DNA of 51,811 nucleotides from Escherichia phage SECphi27. Every line of letters begins with the position of its first letter. Position 1 is the first letter of the stretch. This document shows positions 2,834-47,644 of this stretch, in pieces. Made by a program: the position numbers and the translations under genes. Where the stretch lies: the sequence record LT961732; one strand, 5' to 3'. A model generated the notes under the pieces. That model was not told the DNA's origin, searched no databases, and saw nothing but the letters and a program-made list of their open reading frames with translations.

Positions 2834-3049
2834 ATGAAAGATTTTATTAACGCAGCTACCGCCGGATCTGGCGGTTCATCTATCGCAAGCGCCGCTACAG
2901 GGCAGTTAACCATTGCTATTGCCAGCTTTGTTTTAATGGCTGCATTCGGTGCATGGGGCGCTTACCTTCGCTGGCGTGATAGTAAAAAATTCCACGAGGC
3001 GATCGAAAAAGGTGATATTCAAAAAGCTATTGAAATCAGGGGCAAGTAA
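2834..3049 (+). CDS. holin (single-TMD, pinholin-like)
   Basis: 71 aa; one hydrophobic helix with charged C-terminus; immediately upstream of endolysin with TAATG overlap. Confidence 0.6.
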
Positions 3050-3540
3050 TGAGCATAAAGAACAGGGTAGCGGCGGCGGCCTTTGGAGTTGCGGTTGCCT
3101 TGACTTCTCCACTTCTTGAAGAGATCGAAGGGGTAAGATACAAGCCATACAAAGATATTGCGGGAGTATGGACGGTTTGCGCAGGAATCACCGGACCAGA
3201 TGTTATCCTGGGGAAAACGTACACTAAAAAAGAGTGTGATGCTTTGTTGGCTAAGCATATCCAGGTTGCTAAAAAGGAAGTTGACAAGCAAGTTAAGGTT
3301 GACATTCCTGATAGTATGCGTGCAGCAATGTACTCATTCACTTACAATGCAGGTGTGGGAGCTTTCAGAAATTCAACAATGCTGAAACTCATCAACCAGG
3401 GGAAATTAAACGAGGCTTGCGATCAGCTTTATCGTTGGACTTATTACCATAACCCAAAAACAGGAAAGCGCGAGAAGTCTAAAGGCTTATTTAACAGGCG
3501 CAAGGTCGAATACAAATATTGCACAATGGATCTTAAATGA
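3049..3540 (+). CDS. SAR endolysin (T4/P21-type lysozyme)
   Basis: N-terminal Gly/Ala-rich weakly hydrophobic SAR-like helix; E-x8-D-x5-T catalytic triad pattern ([16 protein letters not shown]). Confidence 0.75.
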
Positions 3541-3932
3541 TGAAGAAATTTTTACTTACACCAATCGCAATGGCGGTGATCTTGTCTGGATGTTCAAGCG
3601 TTACGCCACTGACCGGATTAATCGGTAGAAAGCCGGAAATCACAGCACAGGCTGGCGCGGAGAACGTGAAGCAGACAGTTGGCATTACAGCAAAGCAGGA
3701 CGCCAGCACAAAACAGGAAACCACAATAAAGGAATCTGCGGTTGACAAGGTGGACACGTCAAGCAAGAAGGATTTCACAACATCAACCATTCAGGCCAAT
3801 ACCATCAAGGCAGACAAAATTCAGGTCGTGCAGGGTAATAACGGCAGATGGTACGATCCAGTAATCATATGCGTGGTTGTGTTAATTGTGCTGATTTGTC
3901 TTTACTGGAGAGAAAAGAAAAAGGAGGCTTAA
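3537..3932 (+). CDS. unimolecular spanin (u-spanin)
   Basis: N-terminal lipoprotein signal with lipobox LSGC plus C-terminal TMD ([16 protein letters not shown]); ATGA overlap with endolysin. Confidence 0.7.
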
Positions 3933-27033: not shown

Positions 27034-27054
27034 GTTTAACAAAAAGTGCTATCA
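27034..27054 (-). promoter_or_regulatory. Conserved intergenic motif, inverted class, upstream of major capsid gene
   Basis: Plus strand reads gtttaacaaaaagtgctatca, the reverse complement of the motif, although flanking genes are on plus strand. Confidence 0.55.
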
Positions 27055-30786: not shown

Positions 30787-30805
30787 TTTTAACAAAAAGT
30801 GCTAT
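30787..30805 (-). promoter_or_regulatory. Conserved intergenic motif, inverted class, directly upstream of chaperone RBS
   Basis: Plus strand reads ttttaacaaaaagtgctat followed by AAGGAG and ATG 30820. Confidence 0.55.
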
Positions 30806-36738: not shown

Positions 36739-39700
36739 ATGGCTAAATATATGATAAGCGGCAGTAAGGGCGGAAGCAAAAAGCCATACGTGCCAAAAGA
36801 GATGGAAGATAACCTGATCTCGATAAACAAGATTAAAGTTTTGCTGGCTGTATCTGATGGCGAGTGCGATCCAGATTTCACGTTGCGCGATCTTTATCTT
36901 GATGATGTTCCGGTTATTGCCAGCGATGGCACTGTTAACTACGAGGGAGTTACGGCTGAATATCGACCGGGTACGCAGACGCAAGATTACATCCAGGGTT
37001 TTACTGACACATCAAGTGAGGTGACAGTTGCAAGAGATATTACCGGAGACAATCCTTATGTTATTTCTGTTACAAATAAAAATCTATCTGCGGTAAGAAT
37101 AAAGATCCTGATGCCAGTAGGCATTAAAACAGAGGATAACGGCGATCTTGTTGGCGTAAGGGTTGAGTATGCCGTAGATATGGCTATTGATGGCGGTTCT
37201 TATAGCGAGGTTATGAGAGATGTAATTGACGGCAAGACAAGATCAGGATACGACCGCAGCAGAAGGATTGATCTTCCTAAGTTTGATGAGCGCGTTTTAA
37301 TCCGAGTAAAGCGACTGACTCCAGACAGCACATCTTCAAAGGTGACTGATAAAATCAAGCTGCAAAGTTACGCTGAGGTTGTTGATGCAAAATTCCGCTA
37401 TCCTCTGACTGGCCTTGTATTCGTAGAATTTGACAGCGAATTGTTTCCTACGCAAATCCCTAACATTTCTATAAAAAAGAAATGGAAGATTATTAATGTG
37501 CCAAGCAACTATGATCCAATATCAAGAGAATATCACGGGTCATGGGATGGGACTTTTAAAAAAGCGTGGTCAAATAATCCCGCTTGGGTTCTTTATGATC
37601 TGGTGACAAATCAGCGTTATGGACTTGATCAGCGAGAGTTAGGAATACAGATCGACAAGTGGAGCTTATACGAGGCGGGCGTTTACTGTGATCAGAAAGT
37701 TCCAGACGGTAAGGGCGGTACTGAGCCTCGCTACCTATGCGATGTGGTGATTCAGAATCAAGTTGAGGCTTATCAGCTAATCCGTGACATTTGCTCAATC
37801 TTTCGCGGAATGAGTTTTTGGAATGGTGAGAGCTTATCAATCGTGATTGATAAGCCACGCGATCCATCATACGTGTTTACTAATGAAAACGTCATCAACG
37901 GTGATTTTCAGTACACAACCGCAAGCGAAAAAAGCATGTACACGCAGTGTAACGTGACGTTTGACGACGAACAAAACATGTATCAGCAGGACGTAGAGGG
38001 GGTTTTTGATACTGAGGCGGCATTACGATTTGGATACAATCCAACAAGCATTACAGCGATCGGGTGTACACGCAGGAGCGAAGCGAATCGTCGCGGTCGG
38101 TGGGTTTTGAAAACAAACCTTAGAAGCACTACTGTAAACTTTGCTACCGGACTAGAGGGGATGATTCCATCAATAGGTGATGTGATTGCTATCGCTGATA
38201 ATTTTCAGAGTAGCAACCTAACGTTAAACCTATCGGGCCGAGTAATGGAAGTTTCAGGATTGCAGGTTTTCGTTCCGTTTAAGGTTGATGCTCGCCCTGG
38301 TGATTTTATTATCATCAACAAGCCGGACGGCAAGCCAGTTAAGCGCACGATCTCAAAGGTTAGCGCAGACGGAAAAACAATTGAGTTAAATATCGGATTT
38401 GGTTTTGATGTTAAGCCTGATACTGTTTTTGCGATTGACCGTACTGACCTTGCGTTGCAGCAATACGTTGTGACAACTATCAGCAAGGGTGATGACGAAA
38501 ACGAGTTTACCTATTCAATCACGGCTGTGGAGTACGATCCGAACAAATACGACGAGATTGATTATGGCGTAAACATTGATGACAGGCCGACTTCAATTGT
38601 TCAGCCTGACGTGATGGCAGCGCCTGAGAACGTTAAGATCTCATCTTATTCTCGCGTCGTGCAGGGTGTTAGCGTTGAGACTATGGTTGTTTCATGGGAT
38701 AAGGTTCCTTACGCATCGCTTTATGAAATGCAGTGGCGAAAAGGTGATGGTAACTGGCTGAATACGCCGCAGACCGCTAACAAAGAGATAGAGGTAGAAG
38801 GGATTTACTCTGGCAACTACCAAGTAAGGGTGAGATCCGTTTCTGCAAGCGGTAACGCTTCCCCGTGGTCAAAGATTGCAACCGCCACTCTGACAGGTAA
38901 AGTTGGCGAGCCAGGAGCGCCGATTAATCTTACTGCTTCTGATAATGAAGTTTTTGGCATTCGTGTCAAATGGGGTATGCCGGAAGGATCAGGCGATACG
39001 GCTTACATTGAGCTTCACCAATCGCCAGACGGAACGGTTGAAAACTCAAGTCTGCTTACGCTGATTCCATATCCTCAATATGAGTATTGGCATAGCACGT
39101 TACCAGCGGGGCAAGTTGTATGGTATAGAATCCGCAGCGTTGACAGAATAGGCAACGTTTCCAGTTGGACTGACTTTGTTCGCGGTATGGCGTCAGATGA
39201 TGTTGAATCTGTTTTGGGCGACATTCTGGACAAGATTTTTGATACAGAAGCTGGTCAAGAAATCAAAGAGAACGCCATAGACAGCGCCAATAAAATCAAA
39301 GACCAGGCACAATCAATCATACAGAACGCGTTGGCAAATGATGCAGATGTGAAGTGGACGAGAGTGCAAAACGGAAAGCGCAAGGCTGAATATGGTCATG
39401 CTCTTGAGCTTATCGCCAATGAAACAGAAGCGCGCGTAACTCAAATCGAAGAGTTAAGGGCATCAATTGATGGCGAGATAACATCAAGCATCAAGACAGT
39501 GCAGGAGGCAATTGCCACTGAATCAGAGACGCGAGCGACTCAAATTCAGCAGCTTGATTCTAAATTCACAAAAGAAATCGACGGCGTGCGCAAGGATACT
39601 TCTGCAAGCATTAGCGATGTAAGGCAGACAATCACTAACGAGTCAGAAGCGCGCGCTCAGGCCGTTCAGCAGCTTGACGCTAAGTTCACGAAAGAGATAA

Positions 39701-40317
39701 ACGACCTTGACGGAGTTATCAAAACAGAAGTCGAGGCTAACATCTCAGAAGTGAAACAGGCGATCGCCAATGAGACAGAGGCAAGGGTTCAGGCTGACCA
39801 GGCATTAACAGCACGATTTGGCGACGTTGAATCTGCATTGGTTGAAAAGTTGGATTCTTGGGCGAGCGTTGATTCAGTTGGCGCTAAATACGCTATGAAA
39901 CTTGGCCTTACTTACAAAGGCCAGCAATACAGCGCAGGAATGGTGATGCAGCTTTCGCAGGGTTCATCCGGCCTTATCTCGCAAATTTTGTTTGATGCTA
40001 ACAGGTTCGCCATTATGACTAGCTCTACTGGAGGGACTTTTACTTTGCCTTTCGTGGTTGAGAATAATCAGGTTTTCATTAATAGTCTTTTGGTGAAGAA
40101 CGGTTCAATCACTAATGCGATGATTGGTAATGTGATTCAGTCAAACAACTTTGTTCAAAACCAGCAAGGATGGAGGCTTGATAAAAACGGAATCTTTGAG
40201 AATTACGGATCAACGCCAGGAGAAGGAGCTACTAAATTCACCAATGAGGGATTGAAGGTAAAAGATGCAAACGGAGTATTGAGGGTTGAAGTCGGAAGGA
40301 TTACCGGAAGCTGGTAA
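36739..40317 (+). CDS. host specificity protein / central tail fibre (lambda gpJ-like)
   Basis: About 1192 aa; fibronectin-III-like segments; repeated ETEARxxQxxQL heptad-like units near C-terminus. Confidence 0.8.
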   Translation: MAKYMISGSKGGSKKPYVPKEMEDNLISINKIKVLLAVSDGECDPDFTLRDLYLDDVPVIASDGTVNYEGVTAEYRPGTQTQDYIQGFTDTSSEVTVARDITGDNPYVISVTNKNLSAVRIKILMPVGIKTEDNGDLVGVRVEYAVDMAIDGGSYSEVMRDVIDGKTRSGYDRSRRIDLPKFDERVLIRVKRLTPDSTSSKVTDKIKLQSYAEVVDAKFRYPLTGLVFVEFDSELFPTQIPNISIKKKWKIINVPSNYDPISREYHGSWDGTFKKAWSNNPAWVLYDLVTNQRYGLDQRELGIQIDKWSLYEAGVYCDQKVPDGKGGTEPRYLCDVVIQNQVEAYQLIRDICSIFRGMSFWNGESLSIVIDKPRDPSYVFTNENVINGDFQYTTASEKSMYTQCNVTFDDEQNMYQQDVEGVFDTEAALRFGYNPTSITAIGCTRRSEANRRGRWVLKTNLRSTTVNFATGLEGMIPSIGDVIAIADNFQSSNLTLNLSGRVMEVSGLQVFVPFKVDARPGDFIIINKPDGKPVKRTISKVSADGKTIELNIGFGFDVKPDTVFAIDRTDLALQQYVVTTISKGDDENEFTYSITAVEYDPNKYDEIDYGVNIDDRPTSIVQPDVMAAPENVKISSYSRVVQGVSVETMVVSWDKVPYASLYEMQWRKGDGNWLNTPQTANKEIEVEGIYSGNYQVRVRSVSASGNASPWSKIATATLTGKVGEPGAPINLTASDNEVFGIRVKWGMPEGSGDTAYIELHQSPDGTVENSSLLTLIPYPQYEYWHSTLPAGQVVWYRIRSVDRIGNVSSWTDFVRGMASDDVESVLGDILDKIFDTEAGQEIKENAIDSANKIKDQAQSIIQNALANDADVKWTRVQNGKRKAEYGHALELIANETEARVTQIEELRASIDGEITSSIKTVQEAIATESETRATQIQQLDSKFTKEIDGVRKDTSASISDVRQTITNESEARAQAVQQLDAKFTKEINDLDGVIKTEVEANISEVKQAIANETEARVQADQALTARFGDVESALVEKLDSWASVDSVGAKYAMKLGLTYKGQQYSAGMVMQLSQGSSGLISQILFDANRFAIMTSSTGGTFTLPFVVENNQVFINSLLVKNGSITNAMIGNVIQSNNFVQNQQGWRLDKNGIFENYGSTPGEGATKFTNEGLKVKDANGVLRVEVGRITGSW

Positions 40318-40346
40318 AAAAGGGGGCATAGCCCCCTTTAATTTTA
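40314..40346. terminator. Bidirectional intrinsic terminator
   Basis: gggggc-ata-gccccc hairpin; T7 on minus strand and a T-rich run on plus strand. Confidence 0.7.
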
Positions 40347-40970
40347 ATCATAGTGTGATGCATTTATAACCAAAACAGATGAAGCGGTGTAAATACCAAC
40401 AGGTCCAGGAGTTTGTGCAACCTGCCTAGAAAAAGAGTAGATCCCGTTACCATACGCGGCAGCTTGAGACTCAAAAATCATGAATCCACCTAAAGCCGGA
40501 TTAGGAACAGAGTTTAATGCTGTCAGTGATGGCATTATGGCGCAAGGATAGCCCATGTTAACATCAAATGCGATCCCGCTTACGCCTACTTGCTTTGCAT
40601 CTAGCGGCCTCATTTTTCCATGATAAACCATTTCACCATGAGCATTATAAAACGCTATGCCGTGACTACCTGGGGGAGTCACCATATTACTAAAAGCATA
40701 AACAATAACCTCACCCTGATTATCAGATCTATCAAGTCTTATTGCGTGCCTTCCACCATTGTTAAATTGCGTGAATGATATGTATGATTTAGCGGTCAAT
40801 CTAACAAAGAAAAAACATACCCTATCAACAGGAATTGACGAAGTAAAAACGGTTCCGGTATTAGCAGATATTACGGCCCGATCAATTAGATTAACTGGAG
40901 TGAAATCTGGACTTAACCATAACGATCCGTCTGATTTTTTTATACTCATCCCGTACATTATCACCCCCAA
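40344..40970 (-). CDS. hypothetical protein (downstream half of homopolymer-split gene)
   Basis: 208-aa ORF beginning at TTG within a C5A5 run; contains GIAFYNAHGEMV repeat related to upstream ORF. Confidence 0.5.
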   Translation of the reverse strand: MGVIMYGMSIKKSDGSLWLSPDFTPVNLIDRAVISANTGTVFTSSIPVDRVCFFFVRLTAKSYISFTQFNNGGRHAIRLDRSDNQGEVIVYAFSNMVTPPGSHGIAFYNAHGEMVYHGKMRPLDAKQVGVSGIAFDVNMGYPCAIMPSLTALNSVPNPALGGFMIFESQAAAYGNGIYSFSRQVAQTPGPVGIYTASSVLVINASHYD

Positions 40971-41239
40971 AAAGTATATATATATCTTGAATCAGATCCA
41001 GAAAGCCCACTCCATGTAACGGTGTCGCCACTTACCCCTAAGTTTGGTGCGCCAGGGTCGCCACCACGCCAGGAATTCATGCCAACATATATTGCTTTCA
41101 ATGATTTACCTGGCGGCCTGTTTTGGTAAGTCTTGCTACCTGATGGCTGAGTGAATTTATCAAGGAAGAAAACAGGCGTTAAAAGTCCTGTAACTTCCCT
41201 TCCTCGATCGTCATATATTGCATAACCATATTGCGCCAT
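40961..41239 (-). CDS. hypothetical protein (upstream half of homopolymer-split gene)
   Basis: 92 aa; YGYAIYDDRGREV YD-like repeat; stop lies in homopolymer run overlapping the next ORF. Confidence 0.5.
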   Translation of the reverse strand: MAQYGYAIYDDRGREVTGLLTPVFFLDKFTQPSGSKTYQNRPPGKSLKAIYVGMNSWRGGDPGAPNLGVSGDTVTWSGLSGSDSRYIYTFWG

Positions 41240-41508
41240 TAATTACACCTCAAATCAATAAATTTACTTTCATTTTGCCAACGGTTGATAAATTTAACTT
41301 CTTTATTGTCAACGCTCAACCTGTATTGCTTTTGGCTGAATCTGTTTTCGCGGACTGCATTAATTTTGACTTCATGGAATCCGTTAACAGGGAATGTTTT
41401 AACGTTAAATTTTGCCGTGCAATCGATCTCCTTGAAGTTTCCAGTAGGCGACGCTGCGCACCCTGTCAGAGCGGCTACAGTGGCGATAACTGCGATTAAC
41501 TTTTTCAT
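41239..41508 (-). CDS. cor: small lipoprotein, Cor-like superinfection-exclusion candidate
   Basis: Signal peptide plus lipobox LTGC; about 89 aa; location beside tail fibre genes as in T1/phi80-type phages (inference). Confidence 0.5.
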   Translation of the reverse strand: MKKLIAVIATVAALTGCAASPTGNFKEIDCTAKFNVKTFPVNGFHEVKINAVRENRFSQKQYRLSVDNKEVKFINRWQNESKFIDLRCN

Positions 41509-41564
41509 CTTTATATCTCCTTAGTTGTTGTTGTTTTCAACTATACACGATCTTGGGCATCGCG

Positions 41565-41585
41565 TTTAGCAAAAAGTGCTATTTG
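41565..41585 (-). promoter_or_regulatory. Conserved intergenic motif (variant ...TTGCTAAACG), forward class
   Basis: Minus-strand read: tagcactttttgctaaacg, tatagt, RBS TAAGGAG, ATG 41508. Confidence 0.55.
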
Positions 41586-41589
41586 TTAT

Positions 41590-41850
41590 TTTTTGTTTTC
41601 CGGTGTTATCGAATTTAAGGCGGCGTAAATTTAGAGCAAATTTTATACAACATAAGATCAATAAACAATCAATAAAATAGATATATACATATAAAATCAA
41701 TAGTTTATTTATTTATGTATGTATATTTGTTTTTTCTTGTTATCTGCGTTTCTTGTGGTTTTGGTTGTTTGTGGTGATTTTTCTTTCTGAGTATCTGTAT
41801 GTGCCATCATTCATGTGTATGTATATAATCCGGCGTATCTGAGAGAACAG
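41590..41850. other. AT-rich noncoding element, paralogous to 11380-11640
   Basis: Shared blocks ttttccggtgt, ggcggcgt, tttatttatttat, T/G-rich gttt..gtggtt and gtatgtatata with the region at 11380-11640. Confidence 0.55.
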
Positions 41851-41951
41851 GGGAACAAGAAAAATAACACATATTAATCATTAACTTATGAGTCAAATCT
41901 GTTTTCTTGCCATCTGAGAACGTTTAGAAAACAGAAAAAACAAAACAGCTA

Positions 41952-41979
41952 TTGACTAAATCAACCAAATGGCTACAAT
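41952..41979 (+). promoter_or_regulatory. sigma70 promoter (TTGACT, 16 nt, TACAAT)
   Basis: ttgactaaatcaaccaaatggctacaat about 30 nt upstream of AAGGAG and ATG 42010. Confidence 0.6.
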
Positions 41980-42009
41980 GCACGCATAAAGCAACAAGGA
42001 GCATTAAAG

Positions 42010-47624: not shown

Positions 47625-47644
47625 TAGCACTTTTTGCTAATGAC
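47625..47644 (+). promoter_or_regulatory. Conserved intergenic motif, inverted class, directly upstream of minus-strand tail fibre RBS
   Basis: Plus strand reads tagcactttttgctaatgac while flanking genes are on minus strand. Confidence 0.5.

What the first reader, a model, noticed from the sequence alone, without database searches (positions are those of the whole stretch)
41239..41508. Cor-like lipoprotein candidate for FhuA-type receptor blocking
An 89-aa secreted lipoprotein (lipobox LTGC) is encoded on the minus strand opposite the tail module, with its own motif-driven expression unit. In T1, phi80 and N15-type phages a small lipoprotein in this position (Cor) inactivates the receptor to exclude superinfection. 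The assignment here rests on size, lipobox and position only.
Basis: inference. Interest (0 to 1): 0.35.

Follow-up and report, generated by a model that had tools for sequence, protein, structure and literature searches.

The report
Receptor-blocking phage lipoprotein, probably targeting BtuB
The small lipoprotein gene is real and sits exactly where T1-like phages keep their receptor-blocking gene, but the cassette around it is the one carried by phages that use the vitamin B12 transporter BtuB, so it most likely blocks BtuB rather than FhuA; this is an ordinary, largely anticipated feature.

Summary
An 89-aa lipoprotein ORF (41239-41508, minus strand) has a strong RBS, the lipobox LTGC and a phage promoter motif, and is under purifying selection (dN/dS about 0.06).

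The window is a Warwickvirus (Drexlerviridae). The gene occupies the cor slot: its promoter, RBS and signal-peptide codons align with the cor genes of FhuA phages. Homology to Bas05 (FhuA, same genus) breaks one codon after the lipobox Cys.

The swapped block (40320-41454) holds the mature lipoprotein domain, two putative receptor-binding genes (92 and 204 aa) and a terminator. All three genes form one minus-strand operon. Bas04, Bas06, JK16, RB36 and Kalemo/Kameto are reported to use BtuB. I confirmed this cassette in the first four of those with deposited sequences; RB36's sequence was not examined. JLBYU warwickviruses that carry it were reported not to be FhuA-dependent.

The mature domain fails the curated Cor model (19.2 vs 31 bits). 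It is only a remote relative of Cor, T5 Llp and BF23 Llp.

Best reading: an outer-membrane, periplasm-facing superinfection-exclusion lipoprotein that jams BtuB. It is a new member of a known kind, already anticipated in the literature, and never tested experimentally. Interest is low.

The parts
41540..41579 (-). Promoter-like motif GCACTTTTTGCTAAA + 19 nt + TATAGT (-10-like hexamer at 41545-41540)
   Evidence: The motif is 19 copies in the window against 0.6 expected, each followed at a fixed distance by a -10-like hexamer and then an RBS. This copy is conserved in Bas04, Bas05, Bas06 and Bas07.
41517..41522 (-). Ribosome-binding site AAGGAG, 8 nt before the ATG
   Evidence: Conserved in the Tempevirinae relatives aligned (Bas04-Bas07); T1 diverges at this site.
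41461..41508 (-). Signal peptide codons 1-16 (MKKLIAVIATVAALTG). Together with the promoter it forms the conserved flank shared with cor genes of FhuA phages.
   Evidence: Homology to Bas05 (FhuA) runs from upstream down to 41455.
41458..41460 (-). Lipobox cysteine codon (Cys17, lipidation site). The cassette breakpoint lies one codon further into the gene.
41239..41457 (-). Mature lipoprotein domain after the lipid Cys (72 aa plus stop). C30 and C88 are invariant among the 13 closest homologues. The model has five beta strands. This is the predicted receptor-blocking part.
40961..41239 (-). 92-aa protein (phrog_557, annotated 'outer membrane protein'). It has no signal peptide and is translationally coupled (TAATG). 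Accessory or part of the receptor-binding module.
   Evidence: It is 99% identical to Bas04 and 72% to Bas06, and weakly similar to the FhuA-type homologues.
40344..40958 (-). 204-aa protein (phrog_425, annotated 'membrane associated protein'), starting at the ATG used in relatives. Putative BtuB receptor-binding protein.
   Evidence: The literature assigns the locus to BtuB specificity.
40312..40339 (.). GC-rich hairpin with T-runs on both strands. It is a bidirectional terminator that closes gene J (plus strand) and the lipoprotein operon (minus strand).
36739..40317 (+). J-like central tail fibre (context). It is homologous to Bas05 J right up to its stop codon, so the swapped cassette begins immediately after it.

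Best explanation
The gene encodes a superinfection-exclusion (receptor-blocking) lipoprotein of a BtuB-specific host-recognition cassette.

Shown from the sequence:
- It is transcribed from a phage promoter motif, together with the two putative receptor-binding genes.
- It has a Sec/LspA-type lipoprotein signal peptide.

Inferred from the +2 rule and by analogy with T5 Llp and Rtp45:
- It is exported, lipidated at Cys17 and sorted by Lol to the inner leaflet of the outer membrane.

Inferred from the invariant Cys pair and the T5 Llp precedent:
- Its 72-aa beta-rich domain is tied by a C30-C88 disulfide.

Inferred mechanism:
- The domain binds the periplasmic face or plug of the TonB-dependent transporter BtuB and locks it in a state whose extracellular loops no longer accept the phage's receptor-binding protein.
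- This would prevent superinfection and stop progeny being lost on cell debris.

BtuB specificity is inferred from genetic linkage. The mature domain is exchanged as one block with the receptor-binding genes, and phages with this block use BtuB.
For: 1. Gene anatomy and conservation.
2. Same slot as cor: the promoter, RBS and signal peptide align with cor of Bas05, Bas07 and T1. Homology to Bas05 ends at the J stop (40319) and resumes at 41455, one codon after the lipobox Cys.
3. Cassette type: the all-minus-strand layout (about 204, 92 and 89 aa) is identical in Bas04 (98-99% aa) and Bas06 (56-72% aa). The FhuA phages T1, Bas05 and Bas07 have two plus-strand genes and a 75-aa cor.
4. Receptor data: Bas04 and Bas06 are BtuB-dependent in the BASEL table. 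btuB is listed among the gene hits, with sdaC and dcrB, in the genome-wide screens of Bas04, Bas06, JK16 and RB36, and it has the highest value of the three in the JK16 and RB36 rows shown. Kalemo/Kameto is assigned BtuB. The window's locus is 99.1% identical to JK16 and 95.9% to Kalemo.
5. JLBYU01, 07, 10, 16, 19 and 26 carry the same lipoprotein (95-99%) and were reported not to be FhuA-dependent.
6. Superfamily signal in the mature domain only: hhalign against Cor gives 75.7% probability, E 2.4e-5, end to end with the Cys pair aligned. The family HMM scores Bas05 Cor 13.4 bits and phiR2-01 g145 9.8 bits, each beaten by 0 of 1000 Cys-fixed shuffles.
7. Fold: the AF2 models of this protein and of Cor have the same order of elements (five strands, with a short helix before the last). 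They share Foldseek neighbours, including the receptor-blocking protein of the BtuB phage phiR2-01.
8. Mechanistic precedents: T5 Llp-FhuA and Rtp45-LptD structures and the BF23 BtuB-blocking lipoprotein.
Against: - No experiment on this protein or any close homologue was found in the library.
- Receptor specificity rests on linkage, not on a demonstrated interaction.
- Sequence similarity to the known BtuB blocker (BF23 Llp) is marginal once the signal peptide is removed (6.4 bits; hhalign probability 15-20%).
- No PDB structure matched the model, including T5 Llp. Model confidence is only moderate (pLDDT 72.8 overall, about 80 for the mature part).
- The gene is co-transcribed with putative virion genes. 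T5 llp and T1 cor are separate from theirs.
- Distant family members sit in contexts unrelated to tail genes: Privateervirus early regions and conjugative plasmids.
Confidence: 0.7

Rival explanations
1. One reading: it is a Cor orthologue that inactivates FhuA and excludes T1, phi80 and T5.
For: - It occupies the same genomic slot and has the same promoter and signal peptide as cor.
- It hits PHROG 1119 'Cor' at E 8e-8.
- hhalign against Cor gives 75.7% probability on the mature domain.
Against: - The PHROG and full-length profile matches are carried mainly by the signal peptide. The A1-A3 hhalign aligns only residues 1-36, and pairwise similarity ends at residue 34.
- PHROG-based annotations also label the BF23-type BtuB blockers 'Cor', so the name says nothing about the receptor.
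- The protein scores 19.2 bits on NCBIfam Cor against a cut-off of 31, whereas T1 Cor scores 55.8.
- The linked cassette is the BtuB type, and phages with it use BtuB and not FhuA.
Confidence: 0.05
2. It is an exclusion or envelope-modifying lipoprotein aimed at something other than the outer-membrane receptor. Candidates are DcrB, SdaC, TonB or another step of DNA entry.
For: - Bas04, Bas06, JK16 and RB36 also need sdaC and dcrB.
- Distant homologues occur away from tail genes, in Privateervirus early regions and on conjugative plasmids.
- No direct evidence of BtuB binding exists.
Against: - dcrB dependence is shared by the FhuA phage Bas05.
- The mature lipoprotein domain nevertheless differs completely between Bas05 and this phage and is swapped together with the receptor-binding genes. 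This pattern is expected for a receptor-specific factor.
- All structurally characterised members of this kind bind the cognate receptor.
Confidence: 0.15
3. It is a lysis (outer-membrane spanin) or virion-assembly component, not an exclusion factor.
For: - It is a small outer-membrane lipoprotein.
- It has a weak phrog_812 'Rz-like spanin' hit (E 0.084, residues 1-23 only).
- It is translationally coupled to putative tail-tip genes.
Against: - A complete lysis cassette (holin 2834-3049, endolysin 3049-3540, spanin 3537-3932) lies elsewhere in the window.
- The spanin hit covers only the signal peptide.
- A protein exported and lipid-anchored in the envelope cannot join cytoplasmic tail assembly (established knowledge).
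Confidence: 0.03

Closest known systems
Cor of T1, phi80, N15 and HK022 (FhuA-directed exclusion lipoprotein; NCBIfam NF047972, PHROG 1119)
   Same: - Same genomic slot between the J-linked host-recognition genes and recE.
- Homologous promoter, RBS and signal peptide.
- Lipobox, and the same pair of N-proximal and C-terminal cysteines.
- Same predicted order of five strands.
- Remote profile similarity of the mature domain.
   Different: - The mature domain is 14 residues longer and has no significant pairwise similarity.
- It is below the curated family cut-off.
- It is linked to a BtuB-type rather than a FhuA-type cassette.
- It is co-transcribed with the receptor-binding genes rather than standing alone on the opposite strand.
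BF23 Llp and phiR2-01 g145 (receptor-blocking lipoproteins of BtuB-dependent T5-like phages)
   Same: - Probably the same target (BtuB) and the same modular linkage to the receptor-binding gene.
- Similar size (87-88 aa).
- Cys pattern and motifs such as C-T-[AG], VK[TS]F and VR..[DN]RF.
- Foldseek hit to phiR2-01 g145 (E 0.02).
   Different: - Sequence relationship is marginal without the signal peptide.
- The partner receptor-binding protein is unrelated (pb5/Hrs-like, about 590 aa, against 204 aa here).
- Different phage family.
T5 Llp (FhuA-Llp crystal structure, 8A60)
   Same: - Small outer-membrane lipoprotein facing the periplasm, with a disulfide that ties its termini.
- It is the mechanistic template: it binds the plug of a TonB-dependent transporter and refolds extracellular loops.
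   Different: - It targets FhuA.
- There was no significant match in the PDB fold search.
- The family HMM scores it only 4.3 bits.
Rtp45 / Bas18 SE lipoprotein (LptD-directed, cryo-EM complex)
   Same: - Same kind of gene in the same variable locus downstream of gpJ in small siphophages.
- About 6 kDa lipoprotein with an intramolecular disulfide that binds the periplasmic side of the cognate receptor.
   Different: - Different receptor (LptD, which is not a TonB-dependent transporter).
- No sequence or fold match was seen here.

Membership tests
Cor (phage exclusion lipoprotein Cor, NCBIfam NF047972 equivalog) | Scores above the curated whole-protein cut-off of the family model | tested here: not met
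   The window protein scores 19.2 bits against a cut-off of 31. T1 Cor scores 55.8.
Cor (phage exclusion lipoprotein Cor, NCBIfam NF047972 equivalog) | Lipoprotein signal peptide with lipobox, plus a conserved N-proximal and C-terminal cysteine pair in the mature protein | tested here: met
   The lipobox is LTGC. C30 and C88 are invariant in the 13 closest sequences and align with the Cor cysteines in hhalign.
Cor (phage exclusion lipoprotein Cor, NCBIfam NF047972 equivalog) | Gene sits between the J-linked host-recognition genes and recE, transcribed away from recE | tested here: met
   The upstream region, RBS and signal-peptide codons align with cor of Bas05, Bas07 and T1. Layouts are shown.
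Cor (phage exclusion lipoprotein Cor, NCBIfam NF047972 equivalog) | Carried by FhuA-dependent phages, next to the FhuA-type two-gene module | tested here: not met
   The cassette matches the BtuB phages Bas04, Bas06 and JK16. Their receptors were determined experimentally. JLBYU carriers were reported as not FhuA-dependent.
Cor (phage exclusion lipoprotein Cor, NCBIfam NF047972 equivalog) | Expression confers resistance to FhuA-dependent phages, colicin M and albomycin | not testable with these tools
   This needs a wet-lab assay.
Cor/Llp-like receptor-blocking lipoprotein superfamily (PHROG 1119 in the broad sense) | Detectable homology of the mature domain, not only of the signal peptide | tested here: inconclusive
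   - Mature-only hhalign against Cor: 75.7% probability, E 2.4e-5.
- HMM scores of 13.4 bits (Bas05 Cor) and 9.8 bits (phiR2-01) beat all 1000 Cys-fixed shuffles; BF23 (6.4) and T5 (4.3) are marginal.
- The full-length profile match covers residues 1-36 only.
Cor/Llp-like receptor-blocking lipoprotein superfamily (PHROG 1119 in the broad sense) | Shared small beta fold | tested here: inconclusive
   - The two AF2 models have the same order of secondary-structure elements.
- They share BFVD neighbours: phiR2-01 g145, PSTCR5, Stubb and 3H10_20.
- There was no direct Cor hit and no PDB hit to Llp.
BF23-type Llp (BtuB-blocking lipoprotein of T5-like phages) | Significant sequence similarity to BF23 Llp or phiR2-01 g145 | tested here: inconclusive
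   - BLASTP E 2e-5, largely the signal peptide plus scattered motifs.
- The reciprocal tblastn with BF23 Llp listed no carrier of this family among the 40 rows shown; the only Drexlerviridae hits shown were weak 73-76-aa Cor-like matches.
- Mature-only scores are low.
BF23-type Llp (BtuB-blocking lipoprotein of T5-like phages) | Encoded next to the receptor-binding gene of a BtuB-dependent phage and inherited with it as a module | tested here: met
BF23-type Llp (BtuB-blocking lipoprotein of T5-like phages) | Blocks BtuB function and BtuB-dependent phage adsorption | not testable with these tools
   This needs expression and plating, colicin and B12 assays, or a complex structure.
Outer-membrane spanin (o-spanin) | Located in the lysis cassette with an i-spanin partner | tested here: not met
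   The lysis cassette, with its own spanin, is at 2834-3932. The phrog_812 hit covers only residues 1-23.

The most novel reading that the evidence does not exclude
This family would be a second type of BtuB 'jammer', only marginally related in sequence to the BF23 type. Its mature domain travels with the receptor-binding genes as a plug-in block. The recombination arms would be the end of gene J on one side and the cor promoter plus signal peptide on the other, with the breakpoint one codon past the lipobox cysteine. That would allow receptor and anti-receptor to be swapped in one event between genera. Homologues on conjugative plasmids of Enterobacter, Citrobacter and E. coli could then act as plasmid-borne protection against phages or colicins that use TonB-dependent transporters.
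Probability: 0.3. Interest if true: 0.4.

Novelty: new member of a known kind. Interest (0 to 1): 0.22.

Why it matters
Getting the receptor right changes what the protein is expected to do. It should protect against BtuB-dependent phages and colicins and should impair B12 uptake, not ferrichrome uptake.

It would add a second BtuB-directed blocker, of a sequence type not yet characterised, to the short list of characterised receptor-jamming lipoproteins (Llp/FhuA, Cor/FhuA, Rtp45/LptD, BF23 Llp/BtuB). That would help test whether periplasm-to-surface 'reverse allostery' is general among TonB-dependent transporters.

The exact cassette boundaries are useful for engineering receptor-swapped T1-like phages. 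The principle itself is established, and the assignment has already been suggested in recent papers.

Tried and rejected
- Pfam gave nothing above threshold (DUF6491 and LPAM_1 were sub-threshold).
- The PDB fold search gave no match at E <= 0.001, and no Llp hit.
- The profile search of 1.8 billion representatives found only about 23 small lipoproteins of the same family and no Cor or Llp. Its two long hits (a PKD-repeat protein and a TACC3-like protein) are artefacts of summed repeats.
- Cluster look-ups gave only 'hypothetical protein' or 'lipoprotein' names.
- The simple sigma-70 scan found no minus-strand promoter upstream. The phage motif has a non-canonical spacing of about 19-22 nt between TTG(T/C)TA and the -10 hexamer.
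- The spanin and virion-component readings were rejected.
- The PHROG 'Cor' hit was rejected as evidence for FhuA, because the 'Cor superinfection exclusion protein' label is also applied in deposited annotations to BF23-type BtuB blockers.
- The Rtp genome paper (PMC1367250) is not held in the library.

Full report
**1. The observation**

ORF 41239..41508 (minus strand) encodes 89 aa, MKKLIAVIATVAALTGCAASPTGNF...RCN.
- AAGGAG lies 8 nt before the ATG.
- The N-terminus is a textbook lipoprotein signal peptide with lipobox L-T-G-C (Cys17). Ala at +2 predicts Lol sorting to the outer membrane (established E. coli rule).
- The gene is convergent with the J-like tail-tip gene (ends 40317) and divergent from recE (starts 42010).

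It is a conserved gene.
- tblastn finds it in 90 phage records.
- dN/dS against Kalemo and Bas04 is 0.06-0.07.
- Homologues at 53-56% identity in Hanrivervirus (Bas06) and Dhillonvirus (PTXU06) keep the frame.
- Cys17, C30 and C88 are invariant among the 13 closest sequences.

**2. Expression unit**

- GCACTTTTTG(T/C)TAAA occurs 19 times in the window against 0.6 expected.
- It usually sits just after a stop codon and is followed 19-22 nt later by a -10-like hexamer and then an RBS.
- The copy at 41579-41565, with TATAGT at 41545-41540, precedes this gene.

The unit is a three-gene operon.
- The lipoprotein stop overlaps the ATG of a 92-aa ORF (40961-41239, phrog_557).
- That ORF is followed 2 nt later by a 204-aa ORF (40344-40958, phrog_425).
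- A GC hairpin with T-runs on both strands follows at 40339-40312.

**3. Identity of the window and of the locus**

The region is 99% or more identical to Warwickvirus phages (tunus, tonn, swan01, XY3, JK16) of Drexlerviridae.

T1, Bas05 and Bas07 are all FhuA phages. In them, gene J is followed on the same strand by a protein of about 101 aa and one of about 197-229 aa, then by a 75-aa cor on the opposite strand.

Bas04 and Bas06 are BtuB phages. In them, as in the window, proteins of 204, 91-92 and 89 aa all lie on the opposite strand. Identities to the window are as follows.

| Protein | Bas04 | Bas06 | FhuA-type counterparts |
|---|---|---|---|
| Lipoprotein (89 aa) | 98.9% | 56% | similarity ends at residue 34 |
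| 92-aa protein | 98.9% | 72% | 32-33% over partial alignments |
| 204-aa protein | 98.5% | 64% | 21-26% over partial alignments |

**4. Receptor evidence from the literature**

- The BASEL table lists BtuB for Bas04 and Bas06, and FhuA for Bas05 and Bas07.
- A 2026 preprint's genome-wide screens list btuB, together with sdaC and dcrB, among the gene hits for Bas04, Bas06, JK16 and RB36. In the JK16 and RB36 rows shown, btuB has the highest value of the three.
- The same preprint assigns BtuB to the 50,469-bp warwickvirus Kameto, which has the same length as Kalemo.
- The window's 1.7-kb locus is 99.1% identical to JK16 and 95.9% to Kalemo.
- A J Virol paper states that the warwickviruses JLBYU01, 07, 10, 16, 19 and 26 are not FhuA-dependent. 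These phages carry this lipoprotein at 95-99% identity.
- Both BASEL papers and the preprint describe the locus downstream of gpJ as encoding receptor-binding proteins with cognate exclusion factors.
- The KanT1 paper explicitly notes Cor-like proteins in BtuB-using Tempevirinae.

**5. Positional orthology and cassette boundaries**

The 630 nt upstream of and into the gene were aligned across the window, Bas04, Bas06, Bas05, Bas07 and T1.
- The intergenic region, promoter motif, RBS and signal-peptide codons are conserved whatever the receptor type.
- Similarity collapses right after the lipobox Cys codon.

blastn against Bas05 (same genus, FhuA) shows homology through the J stop codon (40319) and again from 41455 upward.
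- The exchanged block is therefore 40320-41454.
- It contains the terminator, both putative receptor-binding genes and only the mature part of the lipoprotein.
- This is the pattern expected if the mature domain is matched to the receptor recognised by the neighbouring genes.
- It also argues against a target shared by both phage types. One such candidate is DcrB, which Bas05 also needs.

**6. Relationship to known blockers**

- PHROG 1119 'Cor' matches at E 8e-8.
- The full-length profile-profile alignment to a Cor alignment covers only residues 1-36.
- NCBIfam's curated Cor model gives 19.2 bits against a cut-off of 31, so the protein is not a Cor equivalog.
- PHROG-derived annotation also labels the BF23-type BtuB blockers 'Cor'. 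The label therefore carries no receptor information.

With signal peptides removed:
- A 37-sequence family profile aligns end to end with a Cor profile (hhalign 75.7%, E 2.4e-5, cysteines in register).
- The family HMM scores Bas05 Cor 13.4, phiR2-01 g145 9.8, T1 Cor 7.6, BF23 Llp 6.4 and T5 Llp 4.3 bits. The numbers of 1000 Cys-fixed shuffles reaching the real score were 0, 0, 4, 3 and 16 respectively.

AF2 models:
- This protein has pLDDT 72.8 overall and about 80 in the mature part. Cor has pLDDT 79.7.
- Both have five strands in the same order, with a short helical turn before the last strand.
- Foldseek finds no PDB match.
- Both models hit an overlapping set of BFVD entries. These include the 'receptor-blocking protein' of the BtuB-dependent T5-like phage phiR2-01 and lipoproteins of Providencia and Proteus phages.

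I read this as a divergent branch of a loose Cor/Llp superfamily. It cannot be assigned to any characterised subfamily by sequence.

**7. Mechanism**

Precedents:
- T5 Llp is a periplasm-facing lipoprotein with a Cys11-Cys58 disulfide. It binds a non-native plug conformation of FhuA and folds two extracellular loops over the pb5 site.
- Rtp45 binds LptD from the periplasmic side and displaces loops needed by the receptor-binding protein.
- BF23 has a BtuB-blocking lipoprotein inherited with its receptor-binding gene.

By analogy, and from the linkage shown above, the window's protein most likely jams BtuB from the periplasmic side.

Steps shown here:
- the gene, its signal peptide, the operon and the cassette linkage;
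- the receptor of the carrier phages (from the literature).

Steps inferred:
- localisation, the disulfide, binding to BtuB and the allosteric effect.

**8. Rivals**

- FhuA-blocking Cor: contradicted by sections 3-6.
- A non-receptor target (DcrB, SdaC, TonB): possible, but it does not explain the co-swap.
- Spanin or virion role: a complete lysis cassette lies at 2834-3932, and an exported lipoprotein cannot assemble into tails.

**9. Novelty and score**

The kind of element is well known. The specific assignment has been anticipated, and identical proteins are already in GenBank as 'hypothetical protein'.

No experimental test of this family was found. It is a new, uncharacterised member of a known kind. 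Interest is low. The main value of this check is correcting the predicted receptor from FhuA to BtuB.

Noticed in passing
window 993, 4249, 6411, 7085, 9119, 9846, 11150, 12501, 12964, 15400, 18195, 41579, 49189, 51678 (motif starts; strands as): A phage-wide promoter-like motif, aTAGCACTTTTTGTTAAAa, is followed after 19-22 nt by cATAAT or TATAGT. It sits directly after stop codons and 55-75 nt before the next start codon. The spacing is too long for TTGTTA to act as a normal -35 element.
   Followed up: partly
window 27035-27049 (-), 30788-30802 (-), 47627-47641 (+): These are orphan copies of the same motif with no gene behind them. Two lie antisense inside the late structural region. The copies at 30802 (minus strand) and 47627 (plus strand) run into a GC hairpin plus T-run within about 50 nt, which could give tiny or antisense transcripts.
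   Followed up: no
window 40320-41454, compared with L004 (Bas05): The exchangeable receptor cassette has sharp borders: the stop codon of J on one side and the codon after the lipobox Cys on the other. J itself stays about 92% identical to the FhuA phage Bas05 right to its end. In this pair the J C-terminus is therefore not part of the swap.
   Followed up: yes
window 40344-41239, compared with L003 28607-29601 (T1), L004 and L006: The two putative receptor-binding genes keep their order (about 92-101 aa, then about 200-229 aa) but are inverted relative to J in the BtuB-type cassette. They are therefore transcribed from the cor-type promoter instead of reading on from J. How late-stage supply of these putative virion proteins is secured is unclear.
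   Followed up: partly
L009 3220-4121 (Stx phage P27); many Stx2a phage records: Homologues of the 92-aa and 204-aa pair (204-aa protein 44% identical) follow the tail fibre gene of short-tailed Stx-converting phages. They are followed by lom, and no lipoprotein is annotated beside them in P27. The pair is a widely shared tail-tip module.
   Followed up: partly
L012 6001-6264; plasmid hits H191-H199 (e.g. NC_014108.1, E. cloacae ATCC 13047, 84.6 kb): A true family member (P0018, 87 aa) keeps the VDC, INA[MV]R.DRFG, WQ and C-terminal Cys motifs. It sits on conjugative plasmids of about 80-86 kb in Enterobacter, Citrobacter and E. coli, near Hha, DnaB-like and TraG/TraH genes. It may be a plasmid-borne receptor blocker.
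   Followed up: partly
L013 4528-4776 (Proteus phage 3H10_20, Grimontviridae): Homologues at about 30% identity in the 90-kb Privateervirus and Cronobacter phages lie among tRNA, RNA ligase and other non-structural genes, not next to tail genes.
   Followed up: no
window 41509-42009: The 500-bp AT-rich divergent region between the lipoprotein and recE is conserved across Warwickvirus and Hanrivervirus whatever the receptor type. It contains short ORFs (41566-41700, 41709-41810) that some GenBank records annotate as genes. Their coding status is doubtful.
   Followed up: no
literature supplement: BtuB-type warwickviruses and hanriverviruses also require sdaC and dcrB. As I recall, this matches the classical phage C1 requirement for BtuB, DcrA (SdaC) and DcrB. 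I did not check that recollection.
   Followed up: no
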